Both the position numbers and the translations under genes were made by a program. Below, in pieces: positions 1,876-33,248 of a DNA stretch of 64,000 nt (positions are counted from its first letter, which is position 1; the number at the start of each line of letters is the position of its first letter). Under the pieces are notes generated by a model, which was not told where the DNA came from, did not search any database, and worked only from the letters and a program-made list of their open reading frames with translations. The stretch lies in contig OZ024741.1 in assembly GCA_964016885.1 (NCBI GenBank), positions 324,198,001 to 324,262,000 of the forward strand. Direction: 5' to 3'. Origin of the DNA: Eledone cirrhosa. Lineage: Eukaryota.

Positions 1876-1876
<1 letters not shown>

Positions 1877-1956
<80 letters not shown>
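1877..1956 (+). repeat. (TCTA)n microsatellite, 5' flank of Tx1 copy 1
   Basis: Direct reading. Further tracts of the same repeat occur at 6551-6631, 10841-10920 and, degenerate, at 13491-13572. Confidence 0.98.
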
Positions 1957-4900
1957 GTCTGGGATGGACACACGCGTGAAACTTGCTGGGTAAGTTCTGC
2001 TTAAATTTTTATAGAAATTCTTGACTGTGAACCTTCATTTTTAGACCAATTTGAAGAGGGACTGCTAGGTAAAATTTTGATATGGTCAGTCTCTCAAAAT
2101 ATTCTACGCCTTTAGGCGAAATAAAAACTACAACAGACACACCCGAAAACAAAAAACACAACCCCCAAACCATCAACATTCACCCAACTATCACAAACCA
2201 CAAAAGACACCACACCAAAAATTCCCCTGAAGAACTCTGTCACACACCTTCCCCTTCACTCCAACACTCCCACAAACACACACAGAAACACTCCACCACC
2301 GCACAACATACACCTCTCACCTACCCACAATGATAACACCTCAGACACGGGAACCTCAAGTGAGGATGCAGAGGAACCCCAAAAATCCAAGAAGCAAAAA
2401 CGACAGAAAAATACAACAAAAACATCAACTGAAAACACGCACACACCCAACACTGACATAAGCATACCGCCACAAACGACAACCACACCAACAATACAAC
2501 CTGACACTTCACCAACAAAACAAACACCCACACCACCACAATCACAAACCCCAACCGCAAAATGAAAACTACAAACAGAAACAGTACACATAAAAAAACA
2601 AAACACACTACACATACATAAAAATAAGAAACAAAGAACTGGTGGAAACAGTCCGAAAGGACCCCACAATACAATCGGAAGGGAAAACCTTCCACACCAA
2701 CGACCCACCCCCAAACCTCAAAATTATCAGGGTAACTACCCTACAGTATGAAACTTTAAAAGAGAACTTCTTACATGATGTGGGCCCCCTTCCCTCCCTC
2801 ACCAAACACCACCAATCTGGACATGGAGATCGAACAACCCGACCTCCAGGAAACGAAAAGGTAAGTGTTCCTGCCTTTTCTCTCCTTAACTCTTCTTCAC
2901 CAACATGGCGAGTATACAAGCTGGATGTTTGAATGTACGTGGACTGGGCTAGTCTTGGAAACAGGGCTAGCTATTAAATGATCTCAGGTCACATTGTATA
3001 GATGTGATAGCCATCACCGAGTCCAGGATTCACGACAAGCAGCAGCTATCCCCCATGTTCTATGATTTTGAGATCTACGCATCTCTCTGTCAGCCAGGAG
3101 GTGGAGGGGGAGTTGCTGTTCTGTTTAAATAAAACTTGGATCACAAAATACAGACGTTTCACAGCAGCCTGGTGGTCCTGGACGTGATTGGTAGTGAAGG
3201 TGGAGCTTTCAGACTGGTGGCCGTATATGCCCCGACTGGGACATCGTGACCAGAGTTCTTCAAGCGTCTGGAGCCATTCCTGGGAACGTCTCGCTCCTTA
3301 GTGTTAGCCGGGGACTGGAATGGCATCTTAGACGCACGTTGGGACTATGTAGGAACTTGTGATAATAGAGGGAGGTGTAATAGCCTCAAAAATATCATCA
3401 GCCAATTCCAACTGGCTGATAGATATCGAATAGACTTCCCAAGTGCACCACTGTGGACGTAGAGCAACCGAACTGCGTCTTCTAGATCGTATTTAGATAT
3501 ATTTTTAATTAGACAGAATGATAAGGAAACATTAAGCTGTCCACAAATGCACATGGTTGCTTATTTAGACCACAAATTAGTCCCCTGCGTAGTCAACCTT
3601 GATAGAACACATAGACAAGGACCAGGATACTGGAAGCTAAACATGTCGCTTCCGGCGCGTAAGGCCTACAGTAAACGATTTAGCACCTTAGTTAAGTGCC
3701 AGTTGACGGGGGTGATCGTCAACAACAGGTAGTGGAGCTCTCTCAAGAGAATAATTAGAATAGAATCGATAGCATTTAGCAAGGAAGTAGCTTTAGAAAA
3801 AAACAAAACTGAAAAGGAACCTGTAGTTAAAATCGAAGAGGCACTCAGGAATGGCAGTACAGCAGTACGGCACTAGACTAGTCTTTCAGCGTGAAACACG
3901 AAGGTTGTATTGTCAGAAGTAGAACACGTGCTCTAAGAAACGAAGGAGCCAAAGCTGTTAGCTGGGCCCGAGGCAGAGACGAAAAGTGGCAACAAATCCA
4001 CAATTCGGTCTTTGCAAGACAAAGATGGACGCATTATACTTGAATCGAAGCAGATGTGCACGGCCTTCCAGCAGCATTTTGCACAACTGTTAGGGAAAAG
4101 TGGTACATCGTGCGAGGTGATGGACTTCAGCTCCTGCTCCGACGGCGTACCACGATTATCGAGCACGGATGCAGAGATCTGCGAAAGACTGATCACAGTG
4201 GGCGAAATAGAAGATGCCCTAAGCCGCTGGGGGAAACGCAAATCACCCGGTTTAGATGGTCTACCCTATGAGTTTTATATAGGTATGTCAGACTTGTTCT
4301 CTGGCGTTCTCGAAGCGGTCTACTGCAACTGGCAGCAGAACAGGAGGATTCCCAGTTCTGTAGGCAGAGGCGTAGTAACGCTAATCAGCAAAAGATGAGA
4401 ACCAGGGGGATGAGATAAGCAATTTCAGGCCTATAACTCTGCTCAACACATAGTTAAAGATTTTGACCAAGGTGTTAGCAGCGAGGCTGGCGCTTGTCGT
4501 CAAGAACCTGGCAGGGGAAGCGCAAAGGTGTGCAATCCCGACCAGGTCCATACACGACAACCTCCACCTCATGCGATACATCATAGAGAGGGTAGGGTGT
4601 AAACCTGGATCCGGTGGGGCTCTGATCAATTTAGATCAGTCTAAGGCATTTGATAGGGTCGACCATCAATACTTGGAAGCAGTTCTCAAGGCGGCCGTCA
4701 TCGGTCCCGTCTTCAGAGGCTGGATCGCTGCCATGCACACCAGCATCTACTTGTCAGTCAAGGTGAATAGCTACCTATCAGAGCCATTCCAAATAATGCG
4801 TTCCATCCGTCAGGGATACCCTCTCTCCTCCATTCTGTATGTACTGACTCTCGAGCCGTTCTGCGGAAGTTGGAGCTGTTGCAGGGCGTCCCGATCTAAC

Positions 4901-6549
4901 CAGGACTGCGGAAAGCAGCGTCGGCCTATGCCGACGTCATAACCGTAATGGTGTCGAAAACCTCGGAAATCGGGGTAATCGGCAACCTATTACAGCAATA
5001 CGAAACGTTGACAGGAGCAAGACTAAGCCCAAAGAAGTCTGTCGGTTTGCAACTCGGCACATGGAAAGGCAAACCCATGCCTTCCGACAGTGTCGTTGGA
5101 CGCTGGACGGAAGGACCAGTGAAATTGCTCAGGTCTTGTTTGGTCCAGACCTCCAGGTGGACAAGAACTGGAACGAGGTCACGGCCAAGGTGTTTGCACT
5201 CAACCAGAAGTGGGCTGAGTGCAAACTCTCCTTGAAAGGTCGAGCGGAGGTGGCGAATACTTACATAGCGTCCGTCATCTATTACTGCTGGACAGTAATG
5301 CCTTTTCCCCGCGAATACCTTACCGAAATGGAACGCCTACTCTTCAAGTTCCTCTGGAAGAAATAGGCTCCATTGGTGAGGAGATCCATCTGCTGTCAAC
5401 ACCCTTCTAACGGAGGGCTGAGCATGTCGTGGCTGATGATGCGCAGGCACGCGCTGAGGATACGCCATCTCCAGGTATTCCTAACCGGTGAACCGGTGTG
5501 GCTGTCGCTTGTAAGACAAGCTCTTCCGCAACTCGCCTCACTAGCAGAGTTGCAGTCCTGGGTCAAGCGAAGACCCAAAATGGGTGCCTGGCACCTCGAG
5601 TGGCTACAGGCGATCACAGCCCTCTACCAAGCGGAAACGGCAATCAGCAGGGACTCCACTTCGACATTCTATAGGGGATTAGTGGAGGATAAGTGCGACG
5701 ACGTTCTGGGGGAAACTCTAGGAATCGAGGAGGACCAACTGACCAGTCTGTTCGGGAGAACTTTCCGTCCAGGGCCTATGGATAACTTCCCGAGGTCTCT
5801 GGCCTGGCAGTGCTACCGAGGAGCTCTACCAGTTCGAGACAAAATCTACAGGCACGGACGCACTGGCAGAGATCCTGTCAAAAGGACCTGTCCAAGATGC
5901 GAGCAGGACATCGGAACCGTTCTGCACGCAATTGTTCAGTGCCCAGGGGTGACCGACTGTGGAATTATGTCGAACAGCTACTGTCACATGTGGGACGCAT
6001 CCAGTTGTCAGCTGAGTCCATCGTGAGGATCACTCCGCCGCCTTAATTTAAGAACGAAGAAGGGGCGGTTCTCCTCTGTCTGGTGGCTATGGCGAAAGAG
6101 GTAATATGGTGGACGAGGTTAAAAGGAGTGAGGCCAAACACCTTTCTCTCCGGACAACAACTTATCCCTTCTTTAAGTATCACCTCAGAAGGAAGGTGAG
6201 AGTGGAGAGAGGGGTGCTACACCCCAGTAAATTCGCTGAAAGGTGTGTGAATGTGGCAAAAATGACCCAAGTGAATTGGCTTCTCTGTATATAAACCTGT
6301 AGGTTGAGGAGGATAAACAGAGGGAAGACGCGAATACCTACAAAACGTGTACCTGGTGTTGAGGGTTGTTCTATCCACGGTGTGTAAAACAACCCCGCAG
6401 TAACGTTCACCCCTATTGGGGATTTCAATTGTTATTTTATTATATATAGTTTATTGTTATTTATTAATGTTAAAGTTATTTTCATGTAAAACCCCCGCCG
6501 TCACGTCTTATAATGTCCCATTTTTTGCGCCGCTGTGGCAAATAAAGAA

Positions 6550-6550
<1 letters not shown>
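1957..6550 (+). mobile_element. Tx1-clade non-LTR retrotransposon copy 1 (ATCT lineage), inactive, most of ORF1 deleted
   Basis: APE endonuclease (NVRGL, GDWNG, YLDH), RT (SPGLDGLP, DQSKAFDRVDH, AYAD) and C-terminal CxxC..H..C. Ends GTGGCAAATAAAGAAA then (TCTA)n. Confidence 0.93.
2905..6302 (+). pseudogene. Tx1 ORF2 (APE-RT-zinc finger), many stops and frameshifts
   Basis: ATG at 2905 in CCAACATGG context. ORF fragments 4012-4398, 4463-4942, 5061-5366 and 5373-6026 are collinear with the more intact copy 4. Confidence 0.88.
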
Positions 6551-6632
<82 letters not shown>

Positions 6633-7450
6633 AGACGTGTGTAACTTCGCGGAGAAGTTTCCGTTAATTTATGTAAGAAAAAAAACGTGAGTTTTTAGTT
6701 AAATTTTATATTATTGTGTAACTTGACCACCCGTCTGGACCTTCAGGTGGTGGGTCAACTCATTTTCGCCTTTACAGGGGCGAAATATCCATTTGAAACA
6801 TTTTTTCTCCATCGAATCTTGGAAAAAATATTGTAAAAGTTTGATTACGTTATGAACGCTGCGTCCAACGATAATGGTGGTGGAGAGGCGGTAAGACTAC
6901 AAAGCTCGCAGTCAACAACGTCTTCTTCACTAGATACTATAGAGAGGGAAGACGAAATGAAAATGTAAAAACGAATTCATATCCAAACAACACAAATGAC
7001 ACCAAACAGTTCAATGACAACAAAAATAACAGCAACACCAATAATGATGATAAAAGCAACAATGATAACAACAACAAAGAAAAAAATAAAGACAACACCA
7101 ATAACACCAGCATCAAAGACAACAACAACACCAAGGAAAATACGAATAATATCAACATCGGTGACAACAAGAATAACAACAACAATAACAACAATAATGA
7201 CAACACCACCAACACGGATTCTACAAAGAAACCAAAAATCTCCTTTGCAGAGAAAGTTTAAAAAAAGCAGGAACTGATATATCTCGACATAACAAATGCT
7301 GAACAACTTTTAAAGGACGCTAGGAGATATGTCACTTTCGAAAAAAATGGTGCTTTCAGCATCAATTCTCCGGTAGAAATTCGCAAGGAAACTACTCTCA
7401 AAACGATAGTTTTTAGGACAGTTTCCAATTCTACCCGAAAACCAGTCCAA

Positions 7451-8764
7451 TTGTCACAGAAAGAAATTGAACTGGTTTTCAAAAATTCAATGAATGATAT
7501 TGCATTCATTCAAAGAAGCAAACTTTTTGGGAGTATTTCGGTACTCATGAAGGATCAATTGACAGCCCAAAATTACTCTGTGTCGCCAATTGTATCGAAC
7601 CTGTACACCTTTTTCCCTACATACATGGGAAAAAGGACACAAAAGATCAGAATCACGAGTGTCACACCAAAGGTGAACATATGGTGGATACTGTGCGGCT
7701 TCATCAATTTTGATGAAGACAGAATACTGTCAGTAGGAAAGTCCCCCATAGATGTATTCAATGGGACTAGCATTGAAGTTCTGGTGCAAATGAGCCCAGA
7801 GCGAATAGCTATGATCCCACAACGTGTACTCCTGGACGGACTCACCTGCATAAACTTTTCGGTTGAGGCTAGGTGGCCTTCATGTTACCATTGCTTTAGC
7901 AGGGGTCACCTGAGGGCTTCCTGTCCTAAATTAATGAATAAAAAAAGGCTCTTCTGCCGACACCCATCAAAACAACACAACCACCAACACGACCACAACA
8001 ACAACAACACCAACACAAAAATAACCACAACAAACACAGTCCCACCCAACCCCACTCCACCTAAAACCACTCCAAAATCACATACAGACACAACAGCTCC
8101 CCAAGACATACCCCTCCCCAATCACACAGGCGATACAACAGATGAGACTATCTCGCCATCACCCAGTGAAGACGAGGGAGAACCCCATCGCTCGAAAAGA
8201 AAGAAAATATATCACAAAAGCAAAAAACCAGCAAGCACTACCACAAACATACAACCACCAACACAAACAACAAAAACATCACAAACAAAACCCCCACCTC
8301 CTGAAAACAAAATACCTACAACAAAACGAAAGCACACACAAGAACTACAGACAAAAACAAACACAACACAAGAAAATTACACTTACACTTACATAAACAC
8401 TGAAAACAAAACACTAATGGAGACCATCACGAACGATCCTTCGGTGAAAACCGAAGGGAAAACTTTCGCCCACTCTATTAAAAATAGCAAAAAAATGAAC
8501 CTAAAACTGATTAGGGTCCCTATACAAACTTATAGGTCCCTAAAAGAAACATTTGAGAAGGATGTGGGGAATTCCTGCGTGAAACCCCTCAACCGCGTCC
8601 TTCTCAAATGTCTCCCCACCCCAGACACCCCCATCCCACCAGACCCTACCCCACCAAACATCTCCGTCCCCACCCCACCGGAAACCACCACCCATCCAGA
8701 CAACCCCTCCAACACCCCCATGGAAATCGTGTGGCCTGGTCCCCAGGAGACGAAGGGTGAGTGA
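7451..8764 (+). CDS. Tx1 ORF1 (gag-like; zinc knuckle CYHCFSRGHLRASC; Pro/Thr/Lys-rich tail); probable original start ~6852 now frameshifted
   Basis: 437-aa ORF with CX2CX4HX4C ending 36 nt upstream of ORF2. Confidence 0.8.
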   Translation: MSQKEIELVFKNSMNDIAFIQRSKLFGSISVLMKDQLTAQNYSVSPIVSNLYTFFPTYMGKRTQKIRITSVTPKVNIWWILCGFINFDEDRILSVGKSPIDVFNGTSIEVLVQMSPERIAMIPQRVLLDGLTCINFSVEARWPSCYHCFSRGHLRASCPKLMNKKRLFCRHPSKQHNHQHDHNNNNTNTKITTTNTVPPNPTPPKTTPKSHTDTTAPQDIPLPNHTGDTTDETISPSPSEDEGEPHRSKRKKIYHKSKKPASTTTNIQPPTQTTKTSQTKPPPPENKIPTTKRKHTQELQTKTNTTQENYTYTYINTENKTLMETITNDPSVKTEGKTFAHSIKNSKKMNLKLIRVPIQTYRSLKETFEKDVGNSCVKPLNRVLLKCLPTPDTPIPPDPTPPNISVPTPPETTTHPDNPSNTPMEIVWPGPQETKGE

Positions 8765-8800
8765 TCTCTTTTCCTCTTTTAACTTTTCATCAGCACCAAC

Positions 8801-10785
8801 ATGGCCAATATAAGAGTTGGATGTGTGAACGTACGCGGCCTGGGGATGCCCTGGAAGCAGGGCAAACTCTTAAATGACCTCAGGTCGCAAAGTATGGATG
8901 TGGTAGCCATTTGCGAGTCCAGGATCCACAGCGAGCGACAGCTGGCCCCCATCTTCGATGACTTTGAGATCTACGCATCTCTCTGTCAACCGGGGTGTGG
9001 GGGCGGAGTTGCCGTTTTGCTGCGGAAACACCTGGGCCTCGTAACACAGACGATACATCTGGACCCGGAGGGTCGACTGGTGGTCCTAGACGTTGACGGT
9101 AGTGAAGGTGGAGCCTTCAGGCTGGTGGCCGCATATGCCCCATCCGGGACACCGCGGCCAGATTTCTTCAAACGTCTAGAGACTTTTCTGGGAACGTCCC
9201 GCTCCTTGCTTTTAGTGGGGGACTGGAATGGAATCCTAGATGCACGTTGGGACTATGTGGGAGCATGTCCCGATAAAGGGGGGTGTAACAGTCTCAAACA
9301 GTTAATCGACCGATTTGACCTGGCCGATAGATATCGACTAGATTTTCCGACTGCGCCACTGTGGACGTGGAGTAATCGTAGCGGAACATCTAGATCGTAC
9401 CTAGATAGGGTTCTAGTTAGAAATAAAGATAGGGACATGTTAAGCTGTCCACAAATGTTCATAGTTGCCTATTCAGATCACAAACTAGTGACCTGCATGG
9501 CCAACCTTGATAGAACCCATAGACAAGGACCCGGCTACTGGAAGCTGAACTTGTCGTTACCGACAAGCAAAGCCTACAGTAGACGGATTAGCACTTTAGT
9601 TAAACAGCACTTGACAGGGGCCATTGTCAACAACAGATGGTGGTACTCTCTCAAGAGGGCAGTTAGATTAGACTCGATAGTTTTTAGTAAAGAATTAGCG
9701 TTAGATAGAAATAGAACCGAGAAGAAACTGGTAGATAAAGTAGAAGAGGCAATTAGAAGTGGCAACGTAGCCAGCGTGCTAGCAACGAGAACAGCCTTGG
9801 ACCAGTTCTTCGACGCAAAGCACGAGGGCTGCGTTGTTAGAAGCAAAATACGTGCTCTGGGAAACGAGGGAGCCAAAGCTGTTAGCTGGGCCCGAGTGAC
9901 GGAGGCAAAAAGTGGCAACAAGTCCACGATTCAGTCTTTGAAGGACCAAAACGGACGCGTGATACGTGAGCCGAAGCAGATGTGTGCGGTTTTTCAGCGG
10001 CACTTTGCTCGGCTGTTCGGGGGGGGGGGGAGGCTATGGATTTCGCTCCATACCTCGACGGCCTGCCGCGACTCTCGGACAGCGAGGCGAAGTTCTGCGA
10101 AAAGCCGATTTCAGCCACTGAGATAGGGGACGCGCTGAGCCAATGCGGCAAACGCAAATCTCCAGGTCTCGACGGTCTACCTTACGAATTTTACGTAGCA
10201 ATGCCGGACTTATTCTCCGGTCTCCTGGAAGCGGTCTACTGCAACTGGCAACAGAACGGGAGAATTCCCAGTTCTGTAACCGGGGGCGTGGTCACACTAA
10301 TCAGGAAGGACGAGAATAAAGGTGATGACATAGGCAACTTCCGGCCCATAACTCTGCTAAACACAGAGTTACAGATTTTGGCCAAGGTGTTGGCAAAGAG
10401 GCTGGCGCTTGTCGTCGAGAACCTGGTGGGAGAAGCGCAGACATGCGCAATCCCGATTAGGTCCATACACGACAACCTCCACCTCATGCAATACATCATA
10501 GAGAGGGTAGGGTGTAAACCCGGCTTCGGTGGGGCCCTGATCAACTTGGATCAGTCTAAGGCTTTCGATAGGGTTGACCATCGTTACCTGGATGCGGTGC
10601 TCGAGGTGGCAGGCTTCGGACCCGTGTTCAGGGGCTGGATTGCTGCAATGCACAACAGCAACATCTGCTCAAGGGTCAAGGTGAACGGCTACCTCTCGGA
10701 GCCGTTCCATATTACGCGATCCATTCGACAGGGATGCCCTCTCTCCTCCCTTCTGTACGTACTGACTCTCGAGCCACTACTGTAA
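8801..10785 (+). pseudogene. Tx1 ORF2: intact APE domain, frameshift in G-run ~10020, truncated in RT
   Basis: ORFs 8801-10126 (NVRGL, GDWN, YLDR, YSDH) and 9982-10785 (FRPITLLN, KAFDRV, RQGCPLS). Confidence 0.9.
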
Positions 10786-10839
10786 ACTTCCCCCTTTGTA
10801 TTTGTCCCCTTCTTTTGTGCCCTTGTGGCTAATAAATAA

Positions 10840-10896
<57 letters not shown>

Positions 10897-10933
10897 CCTA
10901 TCTATCTATCTATCTATCTATTTATATATCTAA

Positions 10934-13490
10934 ACAGGTGCTCTCGGAAACGAAGGAGCGAAAGCTGTCAGCTGGGCCAGAGTGGCGGAGGCAAAAAGTG
11001 GCAACAAGTCCACGATTCGGTCATTGAAAGACCAAAATGGACGCGTGTTACTTGACCCCAAGCAAATATGCGCGGCCCTTCAGCAGCACTTTGCGCGACT
11101 GTTTGAGCAGAACGACGGTGTGCCGAACGGGGCAATGGGGCATACCTCGACGGCCTGTCGCGTCTCTCTAACTCGGATGCCGAGTTCTGTGAAAGACCGA
11201 TCACGGACACTGAGATACGGGACGCTCTGGTCCGCTTCGGGATTGCAAGTCACCCGGTCTAGATGGTTTACCCGATGAGTTTTACGTAGGAATGCCGGAC
11301 TTGTTCTATGGCGTCCTCGAAGCCGTCTACTGCAATTGGCAGCAGAACGGAAGAATTCCCAGTTCTGCAGGCAAGGGAGTAGTAACGCTGATCAGGAAAG
11401 ACGAGAACAAGGGGGACGAAATTAACAACTTCAGGCCCATAACTCTGCTCAACACATAGTTGAAGATTTTGGCCAACGTGCTAGCGATGAGGTTGGCGCT
11501 TGTCGTCGAGAACCTGATAGGAAAAGCGCAAACATGTGCAATCCCGACCAGGTCCATACACGACAACCTCCACATCATGCGATACATCATGGAGAGGGTG
11601 GGTAGTAAACCCAGCTTCGGTGGGGCTCTGATCAATTTGAATCAGTCTAAGGCATTCGATATGGTCGACCATCGATATTTGGAAGCGGTTCTCAAGGCGG
11701 CCCATTTCGGTCCCGTTTTCAGAGGCTGGATCGAGGCGATGCAGACCAGCATCTGCTCGAGGGTCAAGGTCAACGGCTACCTATCGGAGTCCTTCGCAAT
11801 CACGCGTTCCATTCGACAGGGATGCCATCTCTCCTCCATTCTGTATGTTTTGACGCTAGAGCCACTACTGCGGAAATTGGAGCTGTTGCAGGGCATCTCT
11901 CTAGAACCGGGACTGCGCAAAGCGGCGTCGGCTTATGCCGACCACCTGATGGTAATGGTGTCGAGCACCTAGGAAATCGGGGTGATCGGCAACTTACTGA
12001 AAGAATACGAAACGTTGACGGGAGTAAAACTGAACCCGGACAAGTCTGTCGGTTTGCAACTCGGTACGTGGAGAGGCAAACCGATGACGTCCGACAACGT
12101 TGTTGGACGCTGGACGGACGGACCGGTGAAATTGCTGGGGGTCTGGTTCAGTCCAGACCTCCAGGTAGAGAAAAACTGGAACGAGGTCACGGCCAAGGTG
12201 TTTGCGCTCACCCAGAAGTGGGTAGAGTGAAAACTCTCCTTAAAAGGTCGAGCGGAGGTGGCGGACACTTTCATAGCATCCGTCATCTACTACCGCTTGA
12301 CTGTCGTGCCTTGTCCCCGTGAACACCTCGTCAAGATGGAACGCATGCTCTTCCAGTTCCACTGGAAGAAACAGGCTCCGCTAGTGAGGAGATCCATCTG
12401 CCGTCAGCACTCTTCCAACGGAGGGCTGGGAATGCCGTGGCTGATGATGCGCAAACATGCGCTGAGGCTGCCGCTTATCCAGGTATTTCTCACCGACCCC
12501 CAGCCGGTGTGGGCACCGTTTGTGAGACAGGCTTTCCCGCAGCTCAAGAAAAGACCCAAGAAAATTGGCGCCTGGCACATTGAATGCGCTCAGGCGCTCA
12601 CAGTCCTCTGTCAAGGGAGACTCCACTTCGACATTCTATAGAAGGTTAGTACATCACAAGGACGACGACGTGCTCCGATAGACTCTAGGCGTCGAAGACG
12701 ACGAACTCACCAGTCTGTTTGGTAGGATTTTCCGCCCAGGACCCATGGACAACTTCCAGAGTTCACTGGCCTAGCAGTGCTACCGGGAAGCTCTGCCAGT
12801 TCGTGACAAGATCTACAGATACGGACGCCACGGCAGAGGTCCTTCCATGAGGATGTGTCCAAGATGCGCGCAGGACATTGAAACCGTCCTGCACGCAATT
12901 GTAAATTGCCCGGGCGTAACCGACCTGTGGAACTACACGGAACAACTGCTGTCGCATATGGGACAAATCCAGTTGATTGCCGAGTCTATAGTAAGGATCA
13001 AACCGCCAACTTCTTTCAAAAACGAAAGAGAGGCGGTTTTCCTCTGTACAGTGGCTATGGTGGACGAGATTGAGAAGACTAAGGACGGATGCCTTTCTCT
13101 CCGGACAACAATTGATTCCCTTCTTTAAGTAGCACTTTAGAAGGAGATTCGGGGTGGAGAGAGAGGCACTGCACCCCAGTAAATTTACTCAAAGGTGGGT
13201 GAATGAAGCGAAAATGGCCCGAGTGATTGGACCTTCTCTGTTTATAAGCCTGTAGGTTAAAGAAGAGAGCAAATGTAAGAAGGGAGCACTTGCACAACAC
13301 GCTTCTGAAGTTGAGGGTTGTTCTATCGACGGGGTATTAAACAACCCATTTGTGGCGCCTCCCCCCTATTGGGGATTCCGACTGTTATAATTGTTTGTTT
13401 TATATTTTTTACACAACTGTATGTAAAATCCTCGGCATGTGTCTTTGTATTGTCCCCTTTTCTTGTGCGCTCTTGTGGCAAATAAAGAAA
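10934..13490 (+). mobile_element. Tx1 copy 3 (ATCT lineage), 5'-truncated
   Basis: RT and C-terminal fragments (11460-11972, 11982-12230, 12258-12641). Ends CTTGTGGCAAATAAAGAAA then degenerate (TCTA)n. Confidence 0.92.
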
Positions 13491-13574
13491 TATATCTATC
13501 TATTTATCTGTATGTCTGTTTGTCTCTCTGTTTGTCTGTCTATTTATCTATGACTATCTATGACTATCTATGAC

Positions 13575-13740
13575 TCTTCTTCTTCTTCTTCTTCTTCTTC
13601 TTCTTCTTCTTCTTCTTCTTCTTCTTCTTCTTCTTCTTCTTCTCCTTCTCCTTCGCCTCCTCCTCCTCCTCCTCCTCCTCCTCCTCCTCCTTCTTCTTCT
13701 TCTTCTTCTTCTTCTTCTTCTTCTTCTTCTTCTTCTTCTT

Positions 13741-13770
<30 letters not shown>
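13575..13770 (+). repeat. (TTC)n/(TCC)n compound microsatellite, probable (AAG)n tail of the adjacent RTE
   Basis: Direct reading. Confidence 0.95.
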
Positions 13771-15733: not shown

Positions 15734-15774
<41 letters not shown>

Positions 15775-15786
15775 TAATAATAATGA

Positions 15787-18700
15787 TTTCATTTATTAGC
15801 CACCAGGGCCGACATGTAGGGGACAATACAAAGACAGGGACAGTGGGGGTTTACAATAAGGTGGAGTAAAAGTGCACAATGGCAAGACTAATTTAACAAT
15901 GAAAATATAAAATATAAAATAAACTATGCATAAATATAACAAAATAAATTCCCCGATAGGGGGTATACGACCCTCGGTTGATTCAGGTACCCCACCAATC
16001 CTGAACCACCCTGCGCTTCTAGGGCACCCAGGGAGAGCACCCCTCTCCTCAAGTTAGCTAGCCTATAGGCGCATGGTCAGAGTAGGCCCATTCACACGAG
16101 CCATTCTCGCCACATTCACCCACCTTTTAGCAAATGTACTGGGGAGCAGCACTTCTCTCTCCACCCTCACCTTCCTTTCCAGGTGAAACTTGAAGAAGTT
16201 GATGAGGGATTGGCCGAAGAGAAAAGTGTCTGTCTTTAGTCCTTTCAACCTGGTCCACCATATAATCTCTAAGGCAAATGCCACCAGACAGAGGAAAATT
16301 TCCTGCTCTTCCTGACCTAAGGAAGGCGGTGGATCGATCTTCACTATGGACTCGGCCGATAGCCGGATTCGTTCCACACGCGACAGTAGCTGTTCGACAT
16401 AACTCCACAAGTCAGTAATGCACGGACATTGGACAAGTGCGTGCAGAACGGTTTCGTCGTTCTGTGCGCATATTGGGCAGGTCCGTCTGACAGCACTTCC
16501 GTACCTGTAGAGTTTATCCCGAACCGGCAGTGCCCCCCGGTAGCACTACCAAGTGAGAGATTTCTGGAAATTGTCCATCGTCCCCGGCTCAAAAGTCCTC
16601 CGGTACAGACTGGTCAGTTCGACTTCGTCGAGGCCCAAAGCTTCTCCGAGTGCGTCATCGCACTTGCCCACCACTAATCCTCTATAGAACTCGAGAGTGG
16701 AAGTTCCACTGGTCGTATTGCCCGCTTGGTAGAGGGCAGTGAGTGCCTGGCAACATTCCAGGTGCCAGTCATCCAGTCTCGGTCTCTTCTTGACCCAGGA
16801 CTGCAGCTCAGTCAAAGAAATGAGCTGCGGAAAGGCCCGTCTGATAACCGGTGACCACACCTGTTCACCGTTGAGGCAGAATATCTGGAGATGTCGCAGC
16901 CTCAACGCATGTCTGCGCATCATTAGCCACGGCATGCCCAGCCCTCCGCGTAGAGGGTGCTGGCAGCAGATGAACCGCCTCACCAACGGAATCTGTCCCC
17001 TCCACAAGAATTTGAAGAGGAGCCGTTCCAGCTTGACGAGGCGCGGACGGGGACAAGGCACGACGGTCAGGCGGTAGTAGATGACGCACGCGATGTACGC
17101 ATTCGCCACCTCTGCGCGACCTTTCAGTGATAGCTTCCTCCCAGCCCATTTTTGGGTGAGACTGGCTACTCTGCTCGTTACCTCGTCACAACTCTTTTCC
17201 ACCTGGAGGTCTGGTCCGAACCAAACCCCGAGCAACTTTACCGGTCCGTCCGTCCAGCGCCCCACGACGCTGTTGGACGGCATGGGCTTGCCTCTCCAGG
17301 TTCCGAGCTGCAAGCCCATCGACTTTTCCGGGTTAAGTTTGGCTCCTGTCAATTTTTCATATTCCTCCAATAAGTTGCCGACCACCTCGATTCCTGAGGT
17401 GTTCGACACCATCACGGTGATGTCGTCCGCATAAGCCGACACCGCCTTTCCACGTCCCGGTTCGAGCGGGATGCCCTGCAACAGCTCCAGCTTCTGCAGT
17501 AAAGGCTCGAGAGTCAATACGTACAGAAGGAAAGAGATAGGGCACTCTTGACGGACCGATCGGGAGAGCCGAAATGGTTCCGAGAGGTGGCCATTAACCT
17601 TTACCACAGAGCGTGTGCCGCTGTGCATTGCAACGATCCAGCTTCTAAAGACAGGGCCGAAGCCAGCTGCTTTGAGGACAAACTCCAGATACCGATGGTC
17701 GACCCTATCGAATGCTTTCGATTGATCTAAATTGATCAGTGCCCCACCGAAGCCAGATTTACACCCTACCCTCTCTATGATGTATCGCATGAGGTGGAGA
17801 TTGTCGTGTATGGACCTGGCTGGGATTGCGTAAGTTTGCGCCTCCCCAAACAAATCCTCGACGACAAGCGCCAATCTCTTTGCTATCACCTTGGCCAAAA
17901 TCTTAAACTCTGTGTTGAGCAGAGTTATGGGCCTGAAGTTGTCTAATGTATCCCTCTTGTTCTCGTCTTTCCTTATCAGCGTCACCACTCCCCTGCTCAC
18001 AGAACTGGGAATACTCCCATTCTGCTGCCAGTTGCAGTAGAGTGCTTCGAGGAGTTCGGAGAACAAGTCTGGCATATTTATGTAAAGCTCGTAGGGCAGG
18101 CCATCCAAACCGGGTGACTTGCGCCTCATGCAGCCGACAAGGGCGTCCTGAGTTTCGGCTGAAGTAATCGGCCTTTCGCAGCGCTCAACGTCGACCGTCG
18201 AGATGCGCGGCAAGCCGTCAAGGTAGGGACTGAAATCCGCTACTCTCTCTGACTCGCCACTCTCTCTGAACAACCTAGCAAAGTGCTGGCGAAAGGCCTC
18301 ACACATCCGCTTGGAATCGCTTATCTCGTGTCCGTCTCGGTCCGCCAAAGACCGAATTGTGGTTTTATTACCACGCCGCGTCTCCGCCACGCGGGCCCAT
18401 CGAACAGCTTTAGTTCCCTCGTTTCTCAGCGCACGCGCCTTAGCTCTGACAATGCAACCTTCGTGTTTCGCATTGAAGAAATGGTCTAATGCCATTCTCG
18501 CCGCTAGCACGTCAGTTGCGATGCCACTACAAATAGCCTCGTCTAACTTATCTACCAGCTCCCCCTCCTTTCTATTTTTCTCTAACGCTAGTTCTTTGCT
18601 GAAATCTATCGAAGTTACTCTAATCTCTCTTTCGAGAGCCACCCACCATCTGTTGTTGATGACCCCCCCCCCCCCCTGTCAACTTTTGCTTAACTAAATT

Positions 18701-18874
18701 GTTGACTCGGCCCCTGTAAGCCTTACGTGCCGGAAATGACATGTTCAGCTTCCAGTAACCCGGTCCTAACCTACGCGTTTTATTTAGGTCCACCGTACAG
18801 ATCACAAATTTGTGATCTGAATAGGCGACCGTTTTAAAAAGTGGAAAGCCCACACTATTTCTATCTATTTTCAT
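15787..18874 (-). mobile_element. Tx1 copy 4 (ATT lineage), 5'-truncated, least decayed
   Basis: ORF2 from the end of APE to its stop at 16063. 3' end GGCCCTGGTGGCTAATAAATGAAATC then (ATT)n; 5' end abuts an (ATT)n SINE tail. Confidence 0.94.
16546..18642 (-). CDS. Tx1 ORF2 reverse transcriptase region (698 aa open)
   Basis: SPGLDGLP, FRPITLLNTEFKIL, DQSKAFDRVDH, AYADD, VKLLGVWF. Confidence 0.9.
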   Translation of the reverse strand: MALEREIRVTSIDFSKELALEKNRKEGELVDKLDEAICSGIATDVLAARMALDHFFNAKHEGCIVRAKARALRNEGTKAVRWARVAETRRGNKTTIRSLADRDGHEISDSKRMCEAFRQHFARLFRESGESERVADFSPYLDGLPRISTVDVERCERPITSAETQDALVGCMRRKSPGLDGLPYELYINMPDLFSELLEALYCNWQQNGSIPSSVSRGVVTLIRKDENKRDTLDNFRPITLLNTEFKILAKVIAKRLALVVEDLFGEAQTYAIPARSIHDNLHLMRYIIERVGCKSGFGGALINLDQSKAFDRVDHRYLEFVLKAAGFGPVFRSWIVAMHSGTRSVVKVNGHLSEPFRLSRSVRQECPISFLLYVLTLEPLLQKLELLQGIPLEPGRGKAVSAYADDITVMVSNTSGIEVVGNLLEEYEKLTGAKLNPEKSMGLQLGTWRGKPMPSNSVVGRWTDGPVKLLGVWFGPDLQVEKSCDEVTSRVASLTQKWAGRKLSLKGRAEVANAYIACVIYYRLTVVPCPRPRLVKLERLLFKFLWRGQIPLVRRFICCQHPLRGGLGMPWLMMRRHALRLRHLQIFCLNGEQVWSPVIRRAFPQLISLTELQSWVKKRPRLDDWHLECCQALTALYQAGNTTSGTSTLEFYRGLVVGKCDDALGEALGLDEVELTSLYRRTFEPGTMDNFQKSLTW

Positions 18875-18960
18875 AAATAATAATAATAATAATTGTTTCT
18901 ACTGTTGGCACAAGGCCAGCAATTACCAGTGTATTGCTGGTACTTTATTTTATCGACCCC

Positions 18961-18962
<2 letters not shown>
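18875..18962 (-). mobile_element. SINE 3' fragment between Tx1 copies 4 and 5
   Basis: Reverse complement reads GGGGTCGATAAAATAAAGTACCAG...GGCCTTGTGCCAACAGTAGAAACAATTATT. Confidence 0.8.
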
Positions 18963-19011
<49 letters not shown>

Positions 19012-19012
<1 letters not shown>

Positions 19013-22000
19013 TTTCTATATTGGCCACAAGGGCTAACATGAAGAAAACATTACAGACGACACAGAACGGTACAGGACGATACAAAGTGGGTTTTGGCCG
19101 TGTAAAAAAGGTTATAACAAGATGGAAATATAAAAAAAATTCAAACAACAAAAAATTGCTCAATAGGAGGGAAACATCTGAGGGTCACTCGTGGCGAAAA
19201 CCACACAAAAGATCACGGCCACCCTGACCACCCGGGCAACCGCCCTCTCTCAGTTTTCCCACTCCCCAGTCCACAAGCGCAAACTCAAAGCGGGCCCGTT
19301 TACTCGGACCATTCGCGCTACATTCACCCATCTTTCAACAAACTAACTAGAAGACAGCACTTGCCTCTCCACCCTGATTTTCCTCTTCAAGTGAATCTTG
19401 AAAAAGTTAATCAGGGATTGGCCGAAGAGGAAAGTGTCCGTCTTCAACCCTTTCAACCTTGTCCACCACACAATCTCTTTCGCCATGGCCACCAGGCAGA
19501 TGCAAACTGCCTGCCCTTCCTCCTCTTTAAAGGAGGATGGCGGAGCTAGCTGTACAATGTACTCAGTCGAAAACCGGATCCGTCCTACACGCGACGGCAG
19601 CTGTTCGACATAGCTCTACAAGTCAACAATCCTCGGGCACTGAACGAGTGCGTGCAGGACGGTTTCGTCCCCCTGCGCGCCTCAAGGCAAGCTCGACTGA
19701 CAGCACCTCCGTGCCTGTAGAGCTTATCCCGAACCGGCAACGCTCCCCGGTAGCATTCCCCACCTTCGCCCGACCTTTCAGAGACAGCCTCCTCTCGGCC
19801 CATATCTGGGTGAGAGAGGCCACCCTGCTCGTCATCTCGCTCCAGTTGTTCTCAATCTGGAGGTCCTAAACCGAACCAGAGCCCGAGCAATTTAACCGGT
19901 CCTTCCGTCCAGCACCCCACGACGCTGTGGGACGGCAAGGACCTTCCTCTCCAGGGGCCGAGTTGCAAGCCCACCGACTTTTCCTGATTTATCTTTGTTC
20001 CTGTCACCGCTTCGTATTCCTTGAGAGCAGAGCTGAGCATCTGGACGTGTTTGGTGCTCGAAACCACCATGGTGACGTCGTCGGCATAAGCTGACACGGA
20101 TCTCCTGCATCCCAGTTCGCGTGGAACCCCCCTCATCGTCTCCAATGTGTGCAGGAACGGCTCGAGGGCCAGTACGTACAAGAGGGACGAGAAGGGGAAA
20201 CCCTGGTGGACCGAGCGCATGATGCTGAAAGGCTGCGACAGGTGACCATTCACCCTCACAATCGAGCAGATGACGCTGTGTATCGCAGCGATCCAGCCCC
20301 TAAAAACGGTCCCGAATCCGGCCGCCTCGAGGACCGCATCCAGGTACGGATGGTCGACCCTACCAAATGCTTTAGATTGATCCAAGTTGATCAGGGTCCC
20401 ACCCATGCCAGGTTCCTTAACCACCCTCTCTATGATGTATCGCATGAGATGGAGGTTGTTGTGGATGGATCTGTCCGGGATGGCGCATGTCTGCGACTCT
20501 CCCACCAGATCACCGACGACAAGCGCTAATCACTTTGCTAACACCTTGGCCAAAATCTTAAATTCTGCGTTTAGCAGAGTTATGGGCCTGAAGTTGTCTA
20601 TAGCGTCCCCTTCGGGTCTTTTCTGAGCTGCGCCACCGCTCCTCGGCTCACAAAACTGGGAATGCTCCCGTTTTGCTGCCAGTTGCAGTAGACATCTACC
20701 AAGAGGTCGCCGAACAAGTCTGGCATATACGCATAAAGTTCGTAGGGTAGACCATCCAAACCTGGTGATTTACCCGATCCTGCAGTCAGGCATCGCTTCC
20801 CGTATTTCACCTGCTGTTATCGGCTTCTGCTGTTGTCGAGAGCCGCAGCAGTCCGTCGAGGCATGCACGGGAGTCCATACTCCGATCCAACCTGCCGCCG
20901 CTCCCTAACAATTGAGCAAAGTGCTGTTGAAAAGCCGCACACATCTGCTCGAGTTCGAGCAACATGCGCCCGTTTTTATCAGGCAAAGACCGAATTGTGG
21001 ACTTGTTACCACGTCGTGCCTCGATCACCAGGTCCCATTGAACGGCTTTCGTCCCCTCTGACAACGCAGCCATCGTTCTTTGAGTGCCAATCTCGCCGCA
21101 AGTACGTCGGTTGCGATGCTAGTCCTAACCCCCTCTTCTAGCTTTCTAATTAACTCTCCTTCTACTCTTTTTTCCTCTATCACTACTCCTTTGCCAAACC
21201 TTATCGATTCTATTCTAATAGCCCTTTTCAGAGTAAACCACCACGTGTTGTTGACGATCGCACCCGTCAACGCACGCTTAACTAATTCGCTAATCCGGTC
21301 TCTGTAAGATTTACAAGCTGGGAACGACGCGTTGAGCTTCCAGTAGCCGGGCCCTTGCCTATTGAGTCTATCTAAGTCAACTTCACAGATCACAAATTGT
21401 GGTCCGTGTAGTCGAATACTTTAAATTGTGGACAACCTACACTAGCCTTATCTGTTTCCCTACAGAATACCCTATCTAAATACGATCTGGATGACCCGAT
21501 GCGATTTGCCCATGTCCACATTGGCACATTCGGATAATCCAGTCTATAACTCTCAGACAGTTCAAAACGTCTCAGCAGGTTGTTGAGGCGTTTACAGCCT
21601 ACTGCCCTATCTACTAGCTTCACATAATCTCAGCGTGCATCTAAGATATCATTCCAGTCGCCCACTAACACTAAAGAGTGGGACGTTCAAAGAAAGGTCT
21701 CTAGACGTCTGAAGAAATCTGGCCGTCCTGCCCTTGTTAGGGCGTAGACGACTACTAGCCTGAAAGCATTGCCTTCACCTCCGGTCACGTCCAGCAGCAC
21801 AGACTTACCTTCTGGGTCCAGGAAGATGGCCCGTATGGCGAGAACCAAGCCTCTGCGAAAAAGCACGGCAAGTCCCGCCACCGAACCTGGACGGCTGGGA
21901 GATGCGTATACATCGTAACCGCCGAAGATCGGTGTGAAGGCACGTGCTTCGGAGATTCTTATCTAGGTGATGGCCACCACATCTATATTTAGTGACCTGA

Positions 22001-23388
22001 GGTCGTTGAGCAGGTGACCCTGCTTCCAAGATGACCTCAGGCCACGTACATTTATACTCCCTATACTAAGTACGGTCATGTTGGATGAGAAGCGGGGTAA
22101 GTGAGAAAGGATCACTCACCTTGATCGTGGGTGTATCCTCTGAAATCTGCAACTGCGTTGGGGAACTTTTGTTTTAAAAGTTTGTAATGTTCTATTTTGA
22201 TTCAATGATATTTATGTTTGTCGGGAGAGTTCTTGGTGTTGGTGGGGTGTAGTAGATGTTTTTCTCTGATGTCTGTGTGCTGCTTTATATGCTGTAAGAG
22301 TTCTTTATTTGCCATGTTTATGGCTGTGTACGGTTGGGGGGGGGGCGGTGATTTTGTTGCTGTTTTATTGTTGTTGTTGTTGGGTGTGTGTGTTTTGTTG
22401 TGTTTGCGGTGTTGGTGTTTTTGATGATGCTGGTGGTGCTGTGGTTGTTGTTGGTGGTGATGCTTGTGGTGGTGATGGTGATGGGCGTGGTGTTGCTGCA
22501 AGTCTCCTTGCAGCCTTTACCCCTCTTTGTCTGCCTTCGCTTTTGAAGGGTGAAGCTAAGGGGTTTTACCTTTTTACTTTTTTTGTGGCAGACCGTTTGC
22601 CACTCCCTCCCGCCTCACACTCCATGTCAGATTTCGTGGCGTCTGGGAGGGGTATGAGCTCCACCGCTGTTGGTGGTGGTAGTGGAGCCCGTTCCATCGA
22701 TTTTGCCGTCGGTGTAGCTACTGCGACTTTTGGTGTTATTGCCACTGCTGCCGCTGCTTTAGTTCTCCGGGGCCTTGGTATGGGTGCCACGGACGTTTCC
22801 CTCCTACTCACTATGGAAGAGTCTTCTGCCTCTGTTGCCTGCCCTGCTCTTGGTAGCAGCGGATCAGGCGTCGGAAGGAGGGGACCCTCTCTTGGATTTC
22901 TTCTGCGGGCAGAAGTCACTGAGGTGACCCTTCTGCCCACAGAGATAGCACTTTGGACGCCTTTCTTCCACTGTTATAGGGAGTTGGAGCCCTTCTTCGA
23001 GGTCTATGATGTCTGGGATGGCCTCGATGCACTCTTGGTCAGTCTGTATTAGCATTTGCATGCATATTCCTGACCGGTTATCTCTTCCCATTCTCTGTAT
23101 TTGCAGTATGGTGGTTTTCTCCATTCCAGCCATTACAGACTCGGCCAGCCAAGGTATGGGCACGTCGGGTGGGACCTGAGTCACTTTGACCCTCACAATT
23201 TTCTGCCCGCAGTAGGAGGGCACCAAGACTATCTCCTCACTCTTTAGGGTTTCCAAAGAGTGAGACTACGTTTCTTGGGGGGGTCTACTGTGGCGTACTT
23301 TTTGCCTCGGGTGATGTGGGTGTTGCGCGCCCAGACGCACCCCAAGGCCTTTTGGATTTGAGCCTTCGTGGCTCTCTCCACCCGATGT
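19012..23388 (-). mobile_element. Tx1 copy 5 (ATT lineage), inactive; partial ORF1 plus ORF2 with internal deletion
   Basis: ORF1 knuckle CYLCGQKGHLSDFC (22864-23256), ORF2 ATG at 22079, RT 19852-20505 (AYADD). Ends CCCTTGTGGCCAATATAGAAATC then (ATT)n. Confidence 0.92.
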
Positions 23389-30624: not shown

Positions 30625-30667
<43 letters not shown>

Positions 30668-33035: not shown

Positions 33036-33194
<159 letters not shown>

Positions 33195-33248
33195 CCTACA
33201 TATATATATATATATATAAAGAGAGAAAGAGAAAGAGAGACAGAGAGC

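What the first reader, a model, noticed from the sequence alone, without database searches (positions are those of the whole stretch)
1877..13572. Three distinct Tx1 LINEs stacked head-to-tail in one (ATCT)n microsatellite
Seen: copies 1-3 differ in sequence and structure, share one orientation, and each is bounded on both sides by (TCTA)n directly after ...AATAAA(G/T)AAA. Known: the Tx1 clade includes target-specific families (Kibi TC repeats, Koshi TTC, Keno U2, Dewa tRNA spacers, Mutsu 5S). Inference: this is an (ATCT)n-specific Tx1 lineage, which I do not recall being described; each insertion regenerates its target.
Basis: partly seen in the sequence, partly recalled or inferred. Interest (0 to 1): 0.72.

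Follow-up and report, generated by a model that had tools for sequence, protein, structure and literature searches.

The report
Octopod LINEs homing to ATCT repeats
Three broken copies of related jumping genes, probably in an octopus genome, sit head-to-tail in one ATCT repeat because this family lands almost only in ATCT repeats, likely guided by matching repeats carried on its own RNA. Repeat-seeking relatives are known, but I did not find this repeat described as a target.

Summary
Four (ATCT)n arrays (1876-1960, 6550-6632, 10840-10932, degenerate 13493-13571) bound three co-oriented LINE copies that are 77-80% identical to each other. All three are dead.

The ORF2 carries APE, RT and zf-RVT domains. 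Its best named relative is Xenopus Tx1L.

In a very young subfamily, 18 of 20 5'-truncated copies have at least 3 ATCT units within 30 nt upstream, against a background of 0.07% (0.68% for at least 2 units). Of 22 (ATCT)>=8 arrays sampled without regard to elements, 13-14 have a lineage element directly downstream in the same orientation. About 7 arrays are free.

A sister lineage in the same window does the same with (ATT)n: 9 of 16 junctions have ATT upstream and 0 of 16 have ATCT.

One caveat applies. Full-length copies carry their own ATCT-like 5' leader of at least 12-13 nt, so only truncated copies test the target.

Whether the endonuclease or the RNA's terminal repeats set the choice remains open.

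This is a new target and a new host phylum for a known habit (Kibi, Koshi, crocodilian Tx1). This scan reached the same reading before on other windows of this genome.

The parts
1876..1960 (+). (TATC)21 array, the 5' flank of copy 1. Unique DNA lies upstream, with no element 3' end. Its last units (..TCTGTCT) are impure and may be copy 1's own leader.
1961..6549 (+). Copy 1 (c1), 4.6 kb and dead. It has a full 5' head (GGGATGGACACACG...). It lacks about 1.05-1.16 kb (most of ORF1) after element position 163 (window 2123|2124). ORF2 is broken by several frameshifts. The 3' box is GTGGCAAATAAAGAA.
6550..6632 (+). (ATCT)20.8 array, 100% pure, lying between copy 1 and copy 2.
6633..10839 (+). Copy 2 (c2), 4.2 kb, the youngest of the three. 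It is 96.8% identical to intact natural copies elsewhere. It has the head CAGACGTGTGTAACTTCGCGG. A private deletion of about 1.6 kb joins the RT region (about 10782) to the last 59 nt of the 3' UTR.
7262..8764 (+). Copy 2 ORF1: 500-aa open frame, 90% identical to the 643-aa ORF1 of an intact copy. No Pfam family matches. It has low-complexity AAC-rich stretches.
8783..10126 (+). Copy 2 ORF2 N-terminal part: intact APE-type endonuclease (Exo_endo_phos, residues 28-233) plus linker. The frame ends early because of a frameshift at about 10027-10030. 24 other genomic copies share this frame length.
9970..10785 (+). Copy 2 RT N-terminal part in the shifted frame (RVT_1), cut off by the private deletion.
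10840..10932 (+). (ATCT)23 array, 94% pure, lying between copy 2 and copy 3.
10933..13492 (+). Copy 3 (c3), 2.56 kb. It is 5'-truncated at about ORF2 codon 357 and frameshifted. It belongs to an old subfamily whose nearest genomic relatives are at most 91% identical.
13493..13571 (+). Decayed ATCT-like array (72% matches) after copy 3. It runs into TATCTATGAC x3 and (TCT)65 (13575-13770).
15734..22091 (-). Context, not part of the ATCT stack. Two copies of the sister lineage lie head-to-tail on the minus strand. Their 3' boxes end at 15788 and 19013, each followed by (ATT)n. A short ATT-tailed SINE-like piece lies between them.

Best explanation
Three dead copies of three diverged subfamilies of an L1/Tx1-group LINE lie head-to-tail in one (ATCT)n tract because this lineage inserts almost only into (ATCT)n arrays. 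It likely does so by an endonuclease nick in the repeat, followed by priming of reverse transcription from the element RNA's own (AUCU)n 3' end paired with the nicked (AGAT)n strand.

Shown here:
- The lineage is large and currently active.
- Its copies end in a conserved box GTGGC(A/T)AATAAAGAA followed by 2-4 subfamily-specific bases and ATCT units.
- 5'-truncated copies have ATCT arrays directly upstream far above background.
- New copies often land in the tail of older copies of other subfamilies, which builds stacks like this one.
- A sister lineage with (ATT)n tails lands in (ATT)n and not in (ATCT)n.
- Full-length copies carry an inherited ATCT-like 5' leader of at least 12-13 nt.

Inferred:
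- The RNA is co-transcribed with a little of the donor's flanking repeat at both ends. At the 3' end it would run past the AATAAA in the box.
- These terminal repeats pair with the target on both sides, and the second nick falls 10-24 bp downstream.
- In this window, copy 2 (the youngest) likely landed last, in the array between the older copies 1 and 3.

Open: whether the endonuclease, the RNA ends, or both set the specificity.
For: Family size and activity:
- An APE query gave 53,361 first-look candidates. 50 of the 94 scored matches have an uninterrupted 1150-aa ORF2.
- All 40 scored hits to the 3' end, and all 40 to the head, of an intact natural copy are 100% identical over 180 nt.

Domains and kinship:
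- Exo_endo_phos + RVT_1 + zf-RVT.
- Tx1L of Xenopus is the best named non-cephalopod hit: E 1.6e-86, 309 bits, and 30% identity over 810 aa. Human L1 ORF2p scores 180 bits.

Target:
- Background is 0.68% of strand-specific positions with >=2 ATCT units in the 30 nt upstream, and 0.07% with >=3.
- Young subfamily: 30 loci, 20 with a visible 5' truncation, 18 of those 20 with >=3 units upstream (binomial P about 2e-37). 5 by script, 6 by eye, sit on another copy's 3' end.
- Older c1-type subfamily: 11 of 20 by the strict count. Reading by eye, about 14 of 17 interpretable junctions have ATCT.
- c3-type subfamily: 11 of 11 have ATCT-like tails.
- Blind sample of 22 arrays: 6 have a lineage 3' end upstream. 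13-14 have a lineage head or truncated body directly downstream in the same orientation, and 7-8 of these have no element upstream. About 7 are free.

Target-site duplications that start in a short ATCT-like motif:
- L004, L009, L019.
- L075, L076, L084, L089.

Leader:
- 28 of 30 young heads are preceded by the same CTCTCTATC.
- In L213 unique DNA abuts a 13-nt CTATCTCTCTATC. In L188 another element's 3' box abuts 12 nt of it.
- Extra leaders of 12-19 nt lie between the 5' duplication and the head in L075, L076, L084 and L089.

Reciprocal contrast with the ATT sister subfamily:
- Tails are ATT in 26 of 29 and ATCT in 0 of 29.
- 9 of 16 visible junctions have (ATT)>=3 upstream and 0 of 16 have ATCT. 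ATT background is 0.29%.
- None of the 20 young ATCT-lineage junctions shows an ATT array (read by eye).

Relative ages in the window:
- c2 is 96.8% identical to intact copies.
- c3's nearest relatives are <=91% identical.
- The c1 body is 87-90% identical to its relatives.
Against: - No empty (pre-insertion) site was seen, neither a polymorphic allele nor an ortholog. That the upstream arrays existed before insertion is therefore inferred, except where they are the tail of another copy.
- Part of the 5' ATCT is element-borne. In L211 a full-length copy seems to have brought (ATCT)8 with it, next to a flank duplication of about 37 bp with 2 mismatches. In L183 a 5'-truncated copy has about 31 nt of ATCT-like sequence between a possible duplication and the element. 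Some repeat may therefore be added during integration.
- Arrays can grow by slippage after insertion.
- Exceptions exist: L172 and L167 among the young copies, and L012 and L020 among the older ones.
- The strict count in the older subfamily is only 11 of 20. It includes 3 junctions that are internal rearrangements (L002, L005, L008).
- The young samples are the top-scoring hits. The 3'-anchored one lies wholly on contig C1.
- The endonuclease's cleavage preference was not tested. In the trees both APE and RT follow tail type, so enzyme-set and RNA-set choice cannot be told apart.
- For the three window copies themselves no target-site duplication can be read, because both flanks are repeat.
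Confidence: 0.85

Rival explanations
1. Element-made tail only. The ATCT repeat would be a 3' tail made or carried by the element, insertion sites would be essentially random, and stacks would arise only because tails lie next to elements.
For: Every copy ends in ATCT units whose first bases are subfamily-specific and hence templated: ATATATCT in 28 of 30 young copies and AGATATCT in most c1-type copies. Full-length copies also carry an ATCT-like leader.
Against: - 5'-truncated copies, which have no leader, have ATCT arrays upstream in 18 of 20 cases against 0.68% background.
- 7-8 of 22 blind-sampled arrays have an element only on their downstream side.
- Duplications in L004, L019, L009 and L075 start in an ATCT-like motif of the target.
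Confidence: 0.03
2. RNA-programmed homing. The endonuclease would have little sequence preference, and the choice of ATCT versus ATT would be set by the repeats at the ends of the RNA (3' tail and 5' leader), which must pair with the target for priming and for closing the 5' junction.
For: - The RNA ends mimic the target at both termini.
- The 3' box is nearly the same in ATCT and ATT lineages while only the tail differs.
- Short-motif targets need only 6-9 nt of ATCT-like sequence at the left edge of the duplication.
- Kojima 2015 (PMC4494074, passage read) cites co-transcription with the target as strengthening target-specific integration of other elements.
Against: - The same paper states that target choice in non-LTR elements is mainly set by the endonuclease (PMC4494074, introduction passage read).
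- In the window's trees tail type follows APE as well as RT: ATT clade 100/99, ATCT clade 87/87. No chimera separates the two.
- 18 of 20 is a stringency that pairing alone may not give. That last point is my inference.
Confidence: 0.25
3. The stack would have arisen by tandem duplication or unequal crossing-over between ATCT arrays, not by repeated insertion.
For: Elsewhere in the genome, neighbouring copies share the very same truncation point: L164/L165 at 5230 three times, and L178/L179 at 5314. Array-mediated duplication therefore does occur.
Against: The three window copies are only 77-80% identical. They have different heads, different truncations and different deletions, so they are three insertions.
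Confidence: 0.02

Closest known systems
Kibi ((TC)n) and Koshi ((TTC)n), teleost Tx1-clade LINEs (Kojima & Fujiwara 2004, as cited in PMC4494074 and PMC3812793; passages read)
   Same: They are APE-encoding L1/Tx1-group LINEs found with the same microsatellite on both sides. The habit of homing to a simple repeat is shared.
   Different: The repeat unit is ATCT (tetranucleotide, mixed purine/pyrimidine) instead of TC or TTC. The host is a cephalopod mollusc instead of a fish. Kinship to Kibi and Koshi was not tested because no sequences were at hand. The 12-13-nt element-borne leader seen here is not mentioned in the passages I read.
Crocodilian Tx1 group on (TTCC)n/(TTTC)n (Tx1-1_Crp, Tx1-5_Crp, Tx1-6_Crp, Tx1-1_Gav, Tx1-2/3/5/8_AMi; PMC4494074, section 15 read)
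   Same: They target tetranucleotide microsatellites within the Tx1 clade. That paper's criterion (target seen in more than 20% of flanks) is met here many times over.
   Different: The unit and the host phylum differ. Copy number and youth are far greater here: all 40 scored hits are 100% identical, and 50 of 94 scored ORF2 frames are intact.
Dong, R4 clade, in (TAA)n (PMC3812793, passage read)
   Same: The sister lineage in this window lands in (ATT)n, which is the same repeat as (TAA)n.
   Different: Dong belongs to the clades with a restriction-like endonuclease (PMC4640811, passage read). The elements here carry an APE-type endonuclease.
Target co-transcription in site-specific elements such as R2 (cited in PMC4494074, passage read; details of R1 and TRAS recalled, not from a call)
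   Same: The RNA carries a little of the donor's flanking target, which can pair with the new target.
   Different: Here the flank is a microsatellite and appears at both ends of the RNA. That the pairing is used is inferred, not shown.

Membership tests
Tx1 clade (L1 group) of non-LTR retrotransposons | ORF2 with N-terminal APE-type endonuclease, reverse transcriptase and C-terminal zinc-binding region | tested here: met
   Exo_endo_phos at residues 27-232, RVT_1 at 516-760 and zf-RVT at 981-1037 in the 1150-aa ORF2 of an intact copy. The same domains are found in pieces in the window copies.
Tx1 clade (L1 group) of non-LTR retrotransposons | RT/ORF2 groups with Tx1L rather than with L1 proper or other clades | tested here: inconclusive
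   Tx1L (YTX2_XENLA) is the best named non-cephalopod hit, at 309 bits and 30% identity over 810 aa. Human L1 ORF2p scores 180 bits and R2 proteins at most 82 bits. No tree with reference sets of all clades could be built, because no such sequences are held.
Tx1 clade (L1 group) of non-LTR retrotransposons | A separate ORF1 upstream of ORF2 | tested here: met
   A 643-aa ORF1 ends 21 nt before ORF2 in intact copies. No Pfam family matches it.
Microsatellite-specific Tx1 families (Kibi, Koshi, crocodilian group) | The same microsatellite flanks the copies, in more than 20% of flanks (criterion of PMC4494074) | tested here: met
   18 of 20 and 11 of 20 5'-truncated copies, and 24 of 29 heads, against 0.68% background.
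Microsatellite-specific Tx1 families (Kibi, Koshi, crocodilian group) | Target unit TC, TTC, TTCC or TTTC | tested here: not met
   The unit is ATCT. The sister lineage uses ATT.
Microsatellite-specific Tx1 families (Kibi, Koshi, crocodilian group) | Phylogenetic kinship with Kibi and Koshi | not tested
   No Kibi, Koshi or crocodilian sequences are available in the tools.
LINEs with a 3' microsatellite tail but no target preference | Repeat only at the 3' end, with 5' flanks like background | tested here: not met
   The 5' flanks of truncated copies are ATCT in 18 of 20.

The most novel reading that the evidence does not exclude
Target choice in this lineage is programmed by the RNA itself. 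The transcript carries a few units of the donor's flanking repeat at both ends (a 12-13-nt or longer 5' leader and the 3' tail). A copy that happens to be transcribed from a different repeat can therefore found a lineage with a new target. This would explain how ATT-homing and ATCT-homing sisters arose side by side in one genome. It would be a naturally re-programmable, RNA-guided LINE.
Probability: 0.25. Interest if true: 0.75.

Novelty: new variant of a known kind. Interest (0 to 1): 0.5.

Why it matters
Microsatellite-homing Tx1-clade LINEs are known from fish and crocodilians, so the habit itself is not new.

What is added:
- A new target unit, (ATCT)n, also written GATA or TCTA.
- A new host phylum.
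- A family that is highly active now. It has many 100%-identical copies and dozens of intact ORF2 frames.
- A sister lineage in the same genome with a different target, (ATT)n.

That pair is a ready natural contrast for asking what sets LINE target choice, the endonuclease or the RNA ends. Both modules could be swapped between two close relatives.

The lineage also explains why many ATCT/GATA arrays in this genome are embedded in repeated flanks. That matters for marker design and assembly. It also shows how such elements build self-extending stacks.

Tried and rejected
1. RNA evidence for the transcript's start and end. The look-up of sequencing runs listed no holder on record as RNA. Laying three coded runs gave only fragmentary contigs, with nothing on starts or ends. 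There is no conclusion either way.

2. Target-site duplications of the three window copies. They are unreadable because both flanks are repeat.

3. The built-in control of the pattern search (the pattern read backwards). It is the same repeat in another phase, so it is no control. I used 200 kb of arbitrarily placed genome instead.

4. Rfam and tRNA scans of the window. They found only one tRNA-Gly outside the finding.

5. Telling endonuclease-set from RNA-set targeting by trees of APE and RT from the window copies. Both domains follow tail type, so the trees cannot discriminate.

6. Literature.
- Searches for Tx1 with Kibi/Koshi/microsatellite.
- Tx1 with octopus.
- Non-LTR retrotransposon + microsatellite + target + ATCT, which gave 0 papers.
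- Cephalopod + Tx1 + target site.
- Target-specific + Tx1 + Dong from 2015 on.
- None gave a paper naming ATCT, GATA or TCTA as a Tx1 target.
- PMC13282606 (passages read) lists 13 recently active L1-Tx1 families in Octopus vulgaris without a statement on targets. Its supplements were not read.
- Figure 3 and the supplementary figures of PMC4494074, which list targets of other Tx1 families, are not held as text and could bear on the novelty claim.

7. One search failed on a term format and was re-sent.

'Intact copy' always means the natural copy at L073 2717-8557, used as a yardstick.


Full report
**What is in the window**

Tandem Repeats Finder lists four period-4 arrays in the finding:
- 1876-1960: 21 units, 98% matches.
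- 6550-6632: 20.8 units, 100%.
- 10840-10932: 23 units, 94%.
- 13493-13571: decayed, 72%. It runs into TATCTATGAC x3 and (TCT)65.

Between the arrays lie three elements on the + strand: c1 1961-6549, c2 6633-10839 and c3 10933-13492. Each ends in the box GTGGC(A/T)AATAAA(G/T)AA directly followed by the repeat. Pairwise identities are 76.7%, 77.3% and 79.8%. They are three insertions of three subfamilies, not a duplication.

Upstream of the first array is unique DNA with no element end.

The three copies differ in structure, and all are dead:
- c1 has a full head but lacks about 1.05-1.16 kb after its position 163. That stretch is present in 4 of 4 full-length relatives (L078, L083, L089, L091). 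Its ORF2 is broken by several frameshifts.
- c2 has ORF1 (500-aa frame), an intact APE region (8783-10126) and a frameshift near 10027-10030. It also has a private deletion of about 1.6 kb that joins the RT region to the last 59 nt of the 3' UTR.
- c3 starts at about ORF2 codon 357.

**What the elements are**

The window comes from a 3.0-Gb genome. An APE query found 53,361 first-look candidates. 50 of the 94 scored matches have an uninterrupted 1150-aa ORF2.

I took one natural intact copy as a yardstick: L073 2717-8557, with ORF1 of 643 aa and ORF2 of 1150 aa.
- Its ORF2 has Exo_endo_phos, RVT_1 and zf-RVT. ORF1 matches no Pfam family.
- The closest named protein is a hypothetical protein of the octopod Argonauta hians (63% identity). 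The best named hit outside cephalopods is Xenopus Tx1L: 309 bits, 30% identity over 810 aa.
- Human L1 ORF2p reaches 180 bits and R2 proteins at most 82 bits.

The label L1/Tx1 group is thus supported by similarity. A clade-wide tree could not be made.

c2 is 96.8% identical to the intact copy. c3's nearest relatives are at most 91% identical. The c1 body is 87-90% identical to its relatives. c2 is therefore the youngest and likely landed last, in the array between c1 and c3.

*Background.* In 20 arbitrarily placed 10-kb stretches, 0.68% of strand-specific positions have >=2 tandem ATCT units in the 30 nt upstream. 0.07% have >=3.

*Young subfamily, anchored on the 3' end.*
- All 40 scored hits are 100% identical over 180 nt.
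- Of the 30 loci fetched, 20 show a 5' truncation inside the locus. 18 of those 20 have >=3 ATCT units within 30 nt upstream, with P about 2e-37.
- The exceptions are L167 (an ATCT array followed by (AT)n) and L172.
- Two pairs (L164/L165, L178/L179) are neighbouring copies with the same truncation point. Counting each pair once gives 16 of 18.
- 5 (script) to 6 (by eye) of the 20 sit directly on the tail of another copy, mostly of another subfamily.

*Older c1-type subfamily.* The strict automatic count is 11 of 20. That count includes three junctions that are internal rearrangements. By eye, about 14 of 17 interpretable junctions have ATCT, 7 of them on another copy's tail, and 2 have none.

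*Arrays sampled blind to elements.* I took the 22 distinct (ATCT)>=8 arrays among the first matches on contig C1.
- 6 have a lineage 3' end upstream.
- 13-14 have a lineage head or truncated body directly downstream in the same orientation.
- 7-8 of these have no element upstream.
- About 7 are free of the lineage.

A pure tail model predicts the opposite asymmetry.

**Fine structure of insertions**

Where the target was only a short motif, duplications can be read. In each case the ATCT-like motif sits at the left edge of the duplication, where the first nick and priming would occur.
- L004: TATTCTTATCACT.
- L019: TATCTATAACCATC.
- L009: about 16 bp.
- L075: CTTAATTGTC, after ..TTATCTTA.
- L076: about 19 bp.
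- L084: about 24 bp.
- L089: about 15 bp.

In the four full-length cases (L075, L076, L084, L089), 12-19 extra ATCT-like bases lie between the 5' duplication and the conserved head.

In the young subfamily this leader is plainly inherited:
- 28 of 30 heads are preceded by the same CTCTCTATC.
- In L213 unique DNA abuts a 13-nt CTATCTCTCTATC.
- In L188 another element's 3' box abuts 12 nt of it.

The ATCT-like stretch next to a full-length head is therefore part of the element. This is why I rest the target claim on truncated copies.

Two cases suggest that more repeat can come in with the element or be made at integration:
- L211, a full-length copy, seems to have brought (ATCT)8 with it.
- L183, a truncated copy, has about 31 extra ATCT-like bases.

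This is unexplained in detail.

**The sister lineage**

The window also holds five 3' ends of related copies whose box is followed by (ATT)n: at 15788(-), 19013(-), 44681, 55841 and 56933. These copies are again stacked head-to-tail, partly on ATT-tailed SINE-like pieces.

Genome-wide, for one of these subfamilies:
- Tails are ATT in 26 of 29 and ATCT in 0 of 29.
- Of 16 visible truncation junctions, 9 have (ATT)>=3 upstream and 0 have ATCT. ATT background is 0.29%, giving P about 1e-19.
- None of the 20 young ATCT-lineage junctions shows an ATT array (read by eye).

Each lineage thus seeks its own repeat, not simple sequence in general.

Trees from the window copies (broken frames read with X at the breaks) group as follows:
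- RT tree: ATCT copies together (99/100). Three ATT copies together (100/97). The fourth ATT copy is unresolved.
- APE tree: ATT copies 100/99, ATCT copies 87/87.

Both domains follow tail type. The data therefore cannot say whether the enzyme or the RNA ends set the target.

**Mechanism**

I commit to target-primed reverse transcription at a nick inside the repeat. The RNA's (AUCU)n end would pair with the nicked (AGAT)n strand. A second nick would fall 10-24 bp downstream. The ATCT-like 5' leader would help to close the 5' junction.

Shown:
- The target preference.
- The templated start of the tail.
- The inherited leader.
- The duplications.
- The stacking on older tails.

Inferred:
- The pairing steps.
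- Use of the AATAAA in the 3' box as the signal that puts the RNA's end into the downstream array.
- The order of insertion in the window.

**Comparison and novelty**

Tx1-clade elements that home to microsatellites are known (PMC4494074, introduction and section 15 read; PMC3812793, passage read):
- Kibi in (TC)n.
- Koshi in (TTC)n.
- A crocodilian group in (TTCC)n/(TTTC)n.

L1-Tx1 families are reported as recently active in Octopus vulgaris, without a statement on targets in the passages I read (PMC13282606).

My searches found no paper naming ATCT, GATA or TCTA as a Tx1 target. Repbase, Dfam and the figures of PMC4494074 were not available.

I therefore file this as a new variant of a known kind.

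Earlier notes of this scan on other windows of the same genome reached the same reading. I checked the target claim and the two-target contrast with my own samples. I had seen the leader before reading those notes.

Noticed in passing
window 15734-22091 (-), 39414-44724 (+), 52799-56982 (+): A sister LINE lineage with (ATT)n tails is also stacked head-to-tail in this window. There are five 3' boxes followed by ATT. One full-length copy starts right after the (ATT)5 tail of a SINE-like piece at 39414-39428. Genome-wide it lands in ATT arrays (9 of 16 junctions) and never in ATCT (0 of 16).
   Followed up: partly
window 18876-18962 (-), 39313-39428, 36965-37031, 51381-51422: There are short SINE-like pieces ending ...GCC(A/T)AA(A/C)AGTAGAAACA followed by (ATT)n. 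They may be non-autonomous partners of the ATT lineage.
   Followed up: no
window 10027-10030; genome copies listed: 24 of the 94 scored APE matches share copy 2's short ORF2 frame (442-455 aa). A whole subfamily therefore carries the same frameshift between the APE and RT parts. It is either mobilised in trans or read by a programmed frameshift.
   Followed up: no
L164/L165 and L178/L179 (contig C1): Two or three neighbouring young copies have the identical 5' truncation point, separated by short ATCT arrays. This looks like tandem duplication between arrays or template switching during one integration.
   Followed up: no
L075-L094; L079, L083, L127, L134, L159, L173, L182, L122: The same 163-nt head is joined to bodies that differ by 10-25%. 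At least eight different head types abut ATCT arrays. This suggests frequent exchange of 5' ends between subfamilies, perhaps through stacked copies.
   Followed up: no
L211 with L221: A 100%-identical full-length copy is flanked by a duplication of about 37 bp (2 mismatches) of an (ATC)n-led repeat. TTAT(ATCT)8CTCTCTCTATC lies between the duplication and the head. The target here seems to be (ATC)n, and the ATCT units at the 5' side came with the element.
   Followed up: partly
window 35112-35183 (-): A tRNA-Gly(TCC), the only Rfam/ARAGORN hit in the window (62.5 bits).
   Followed up: no
window 13575-13770, 30666-30819, 33134-33388, 50106-50807: The window is unusually rich in long simple repeats: (TCT)65, (TTC)51, (AG)127 and (AT)350. 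About 40% of it is made of this LINE lineage, against 0.55% in 200 kb of arbitrarily placed genome.
   Followed up: no
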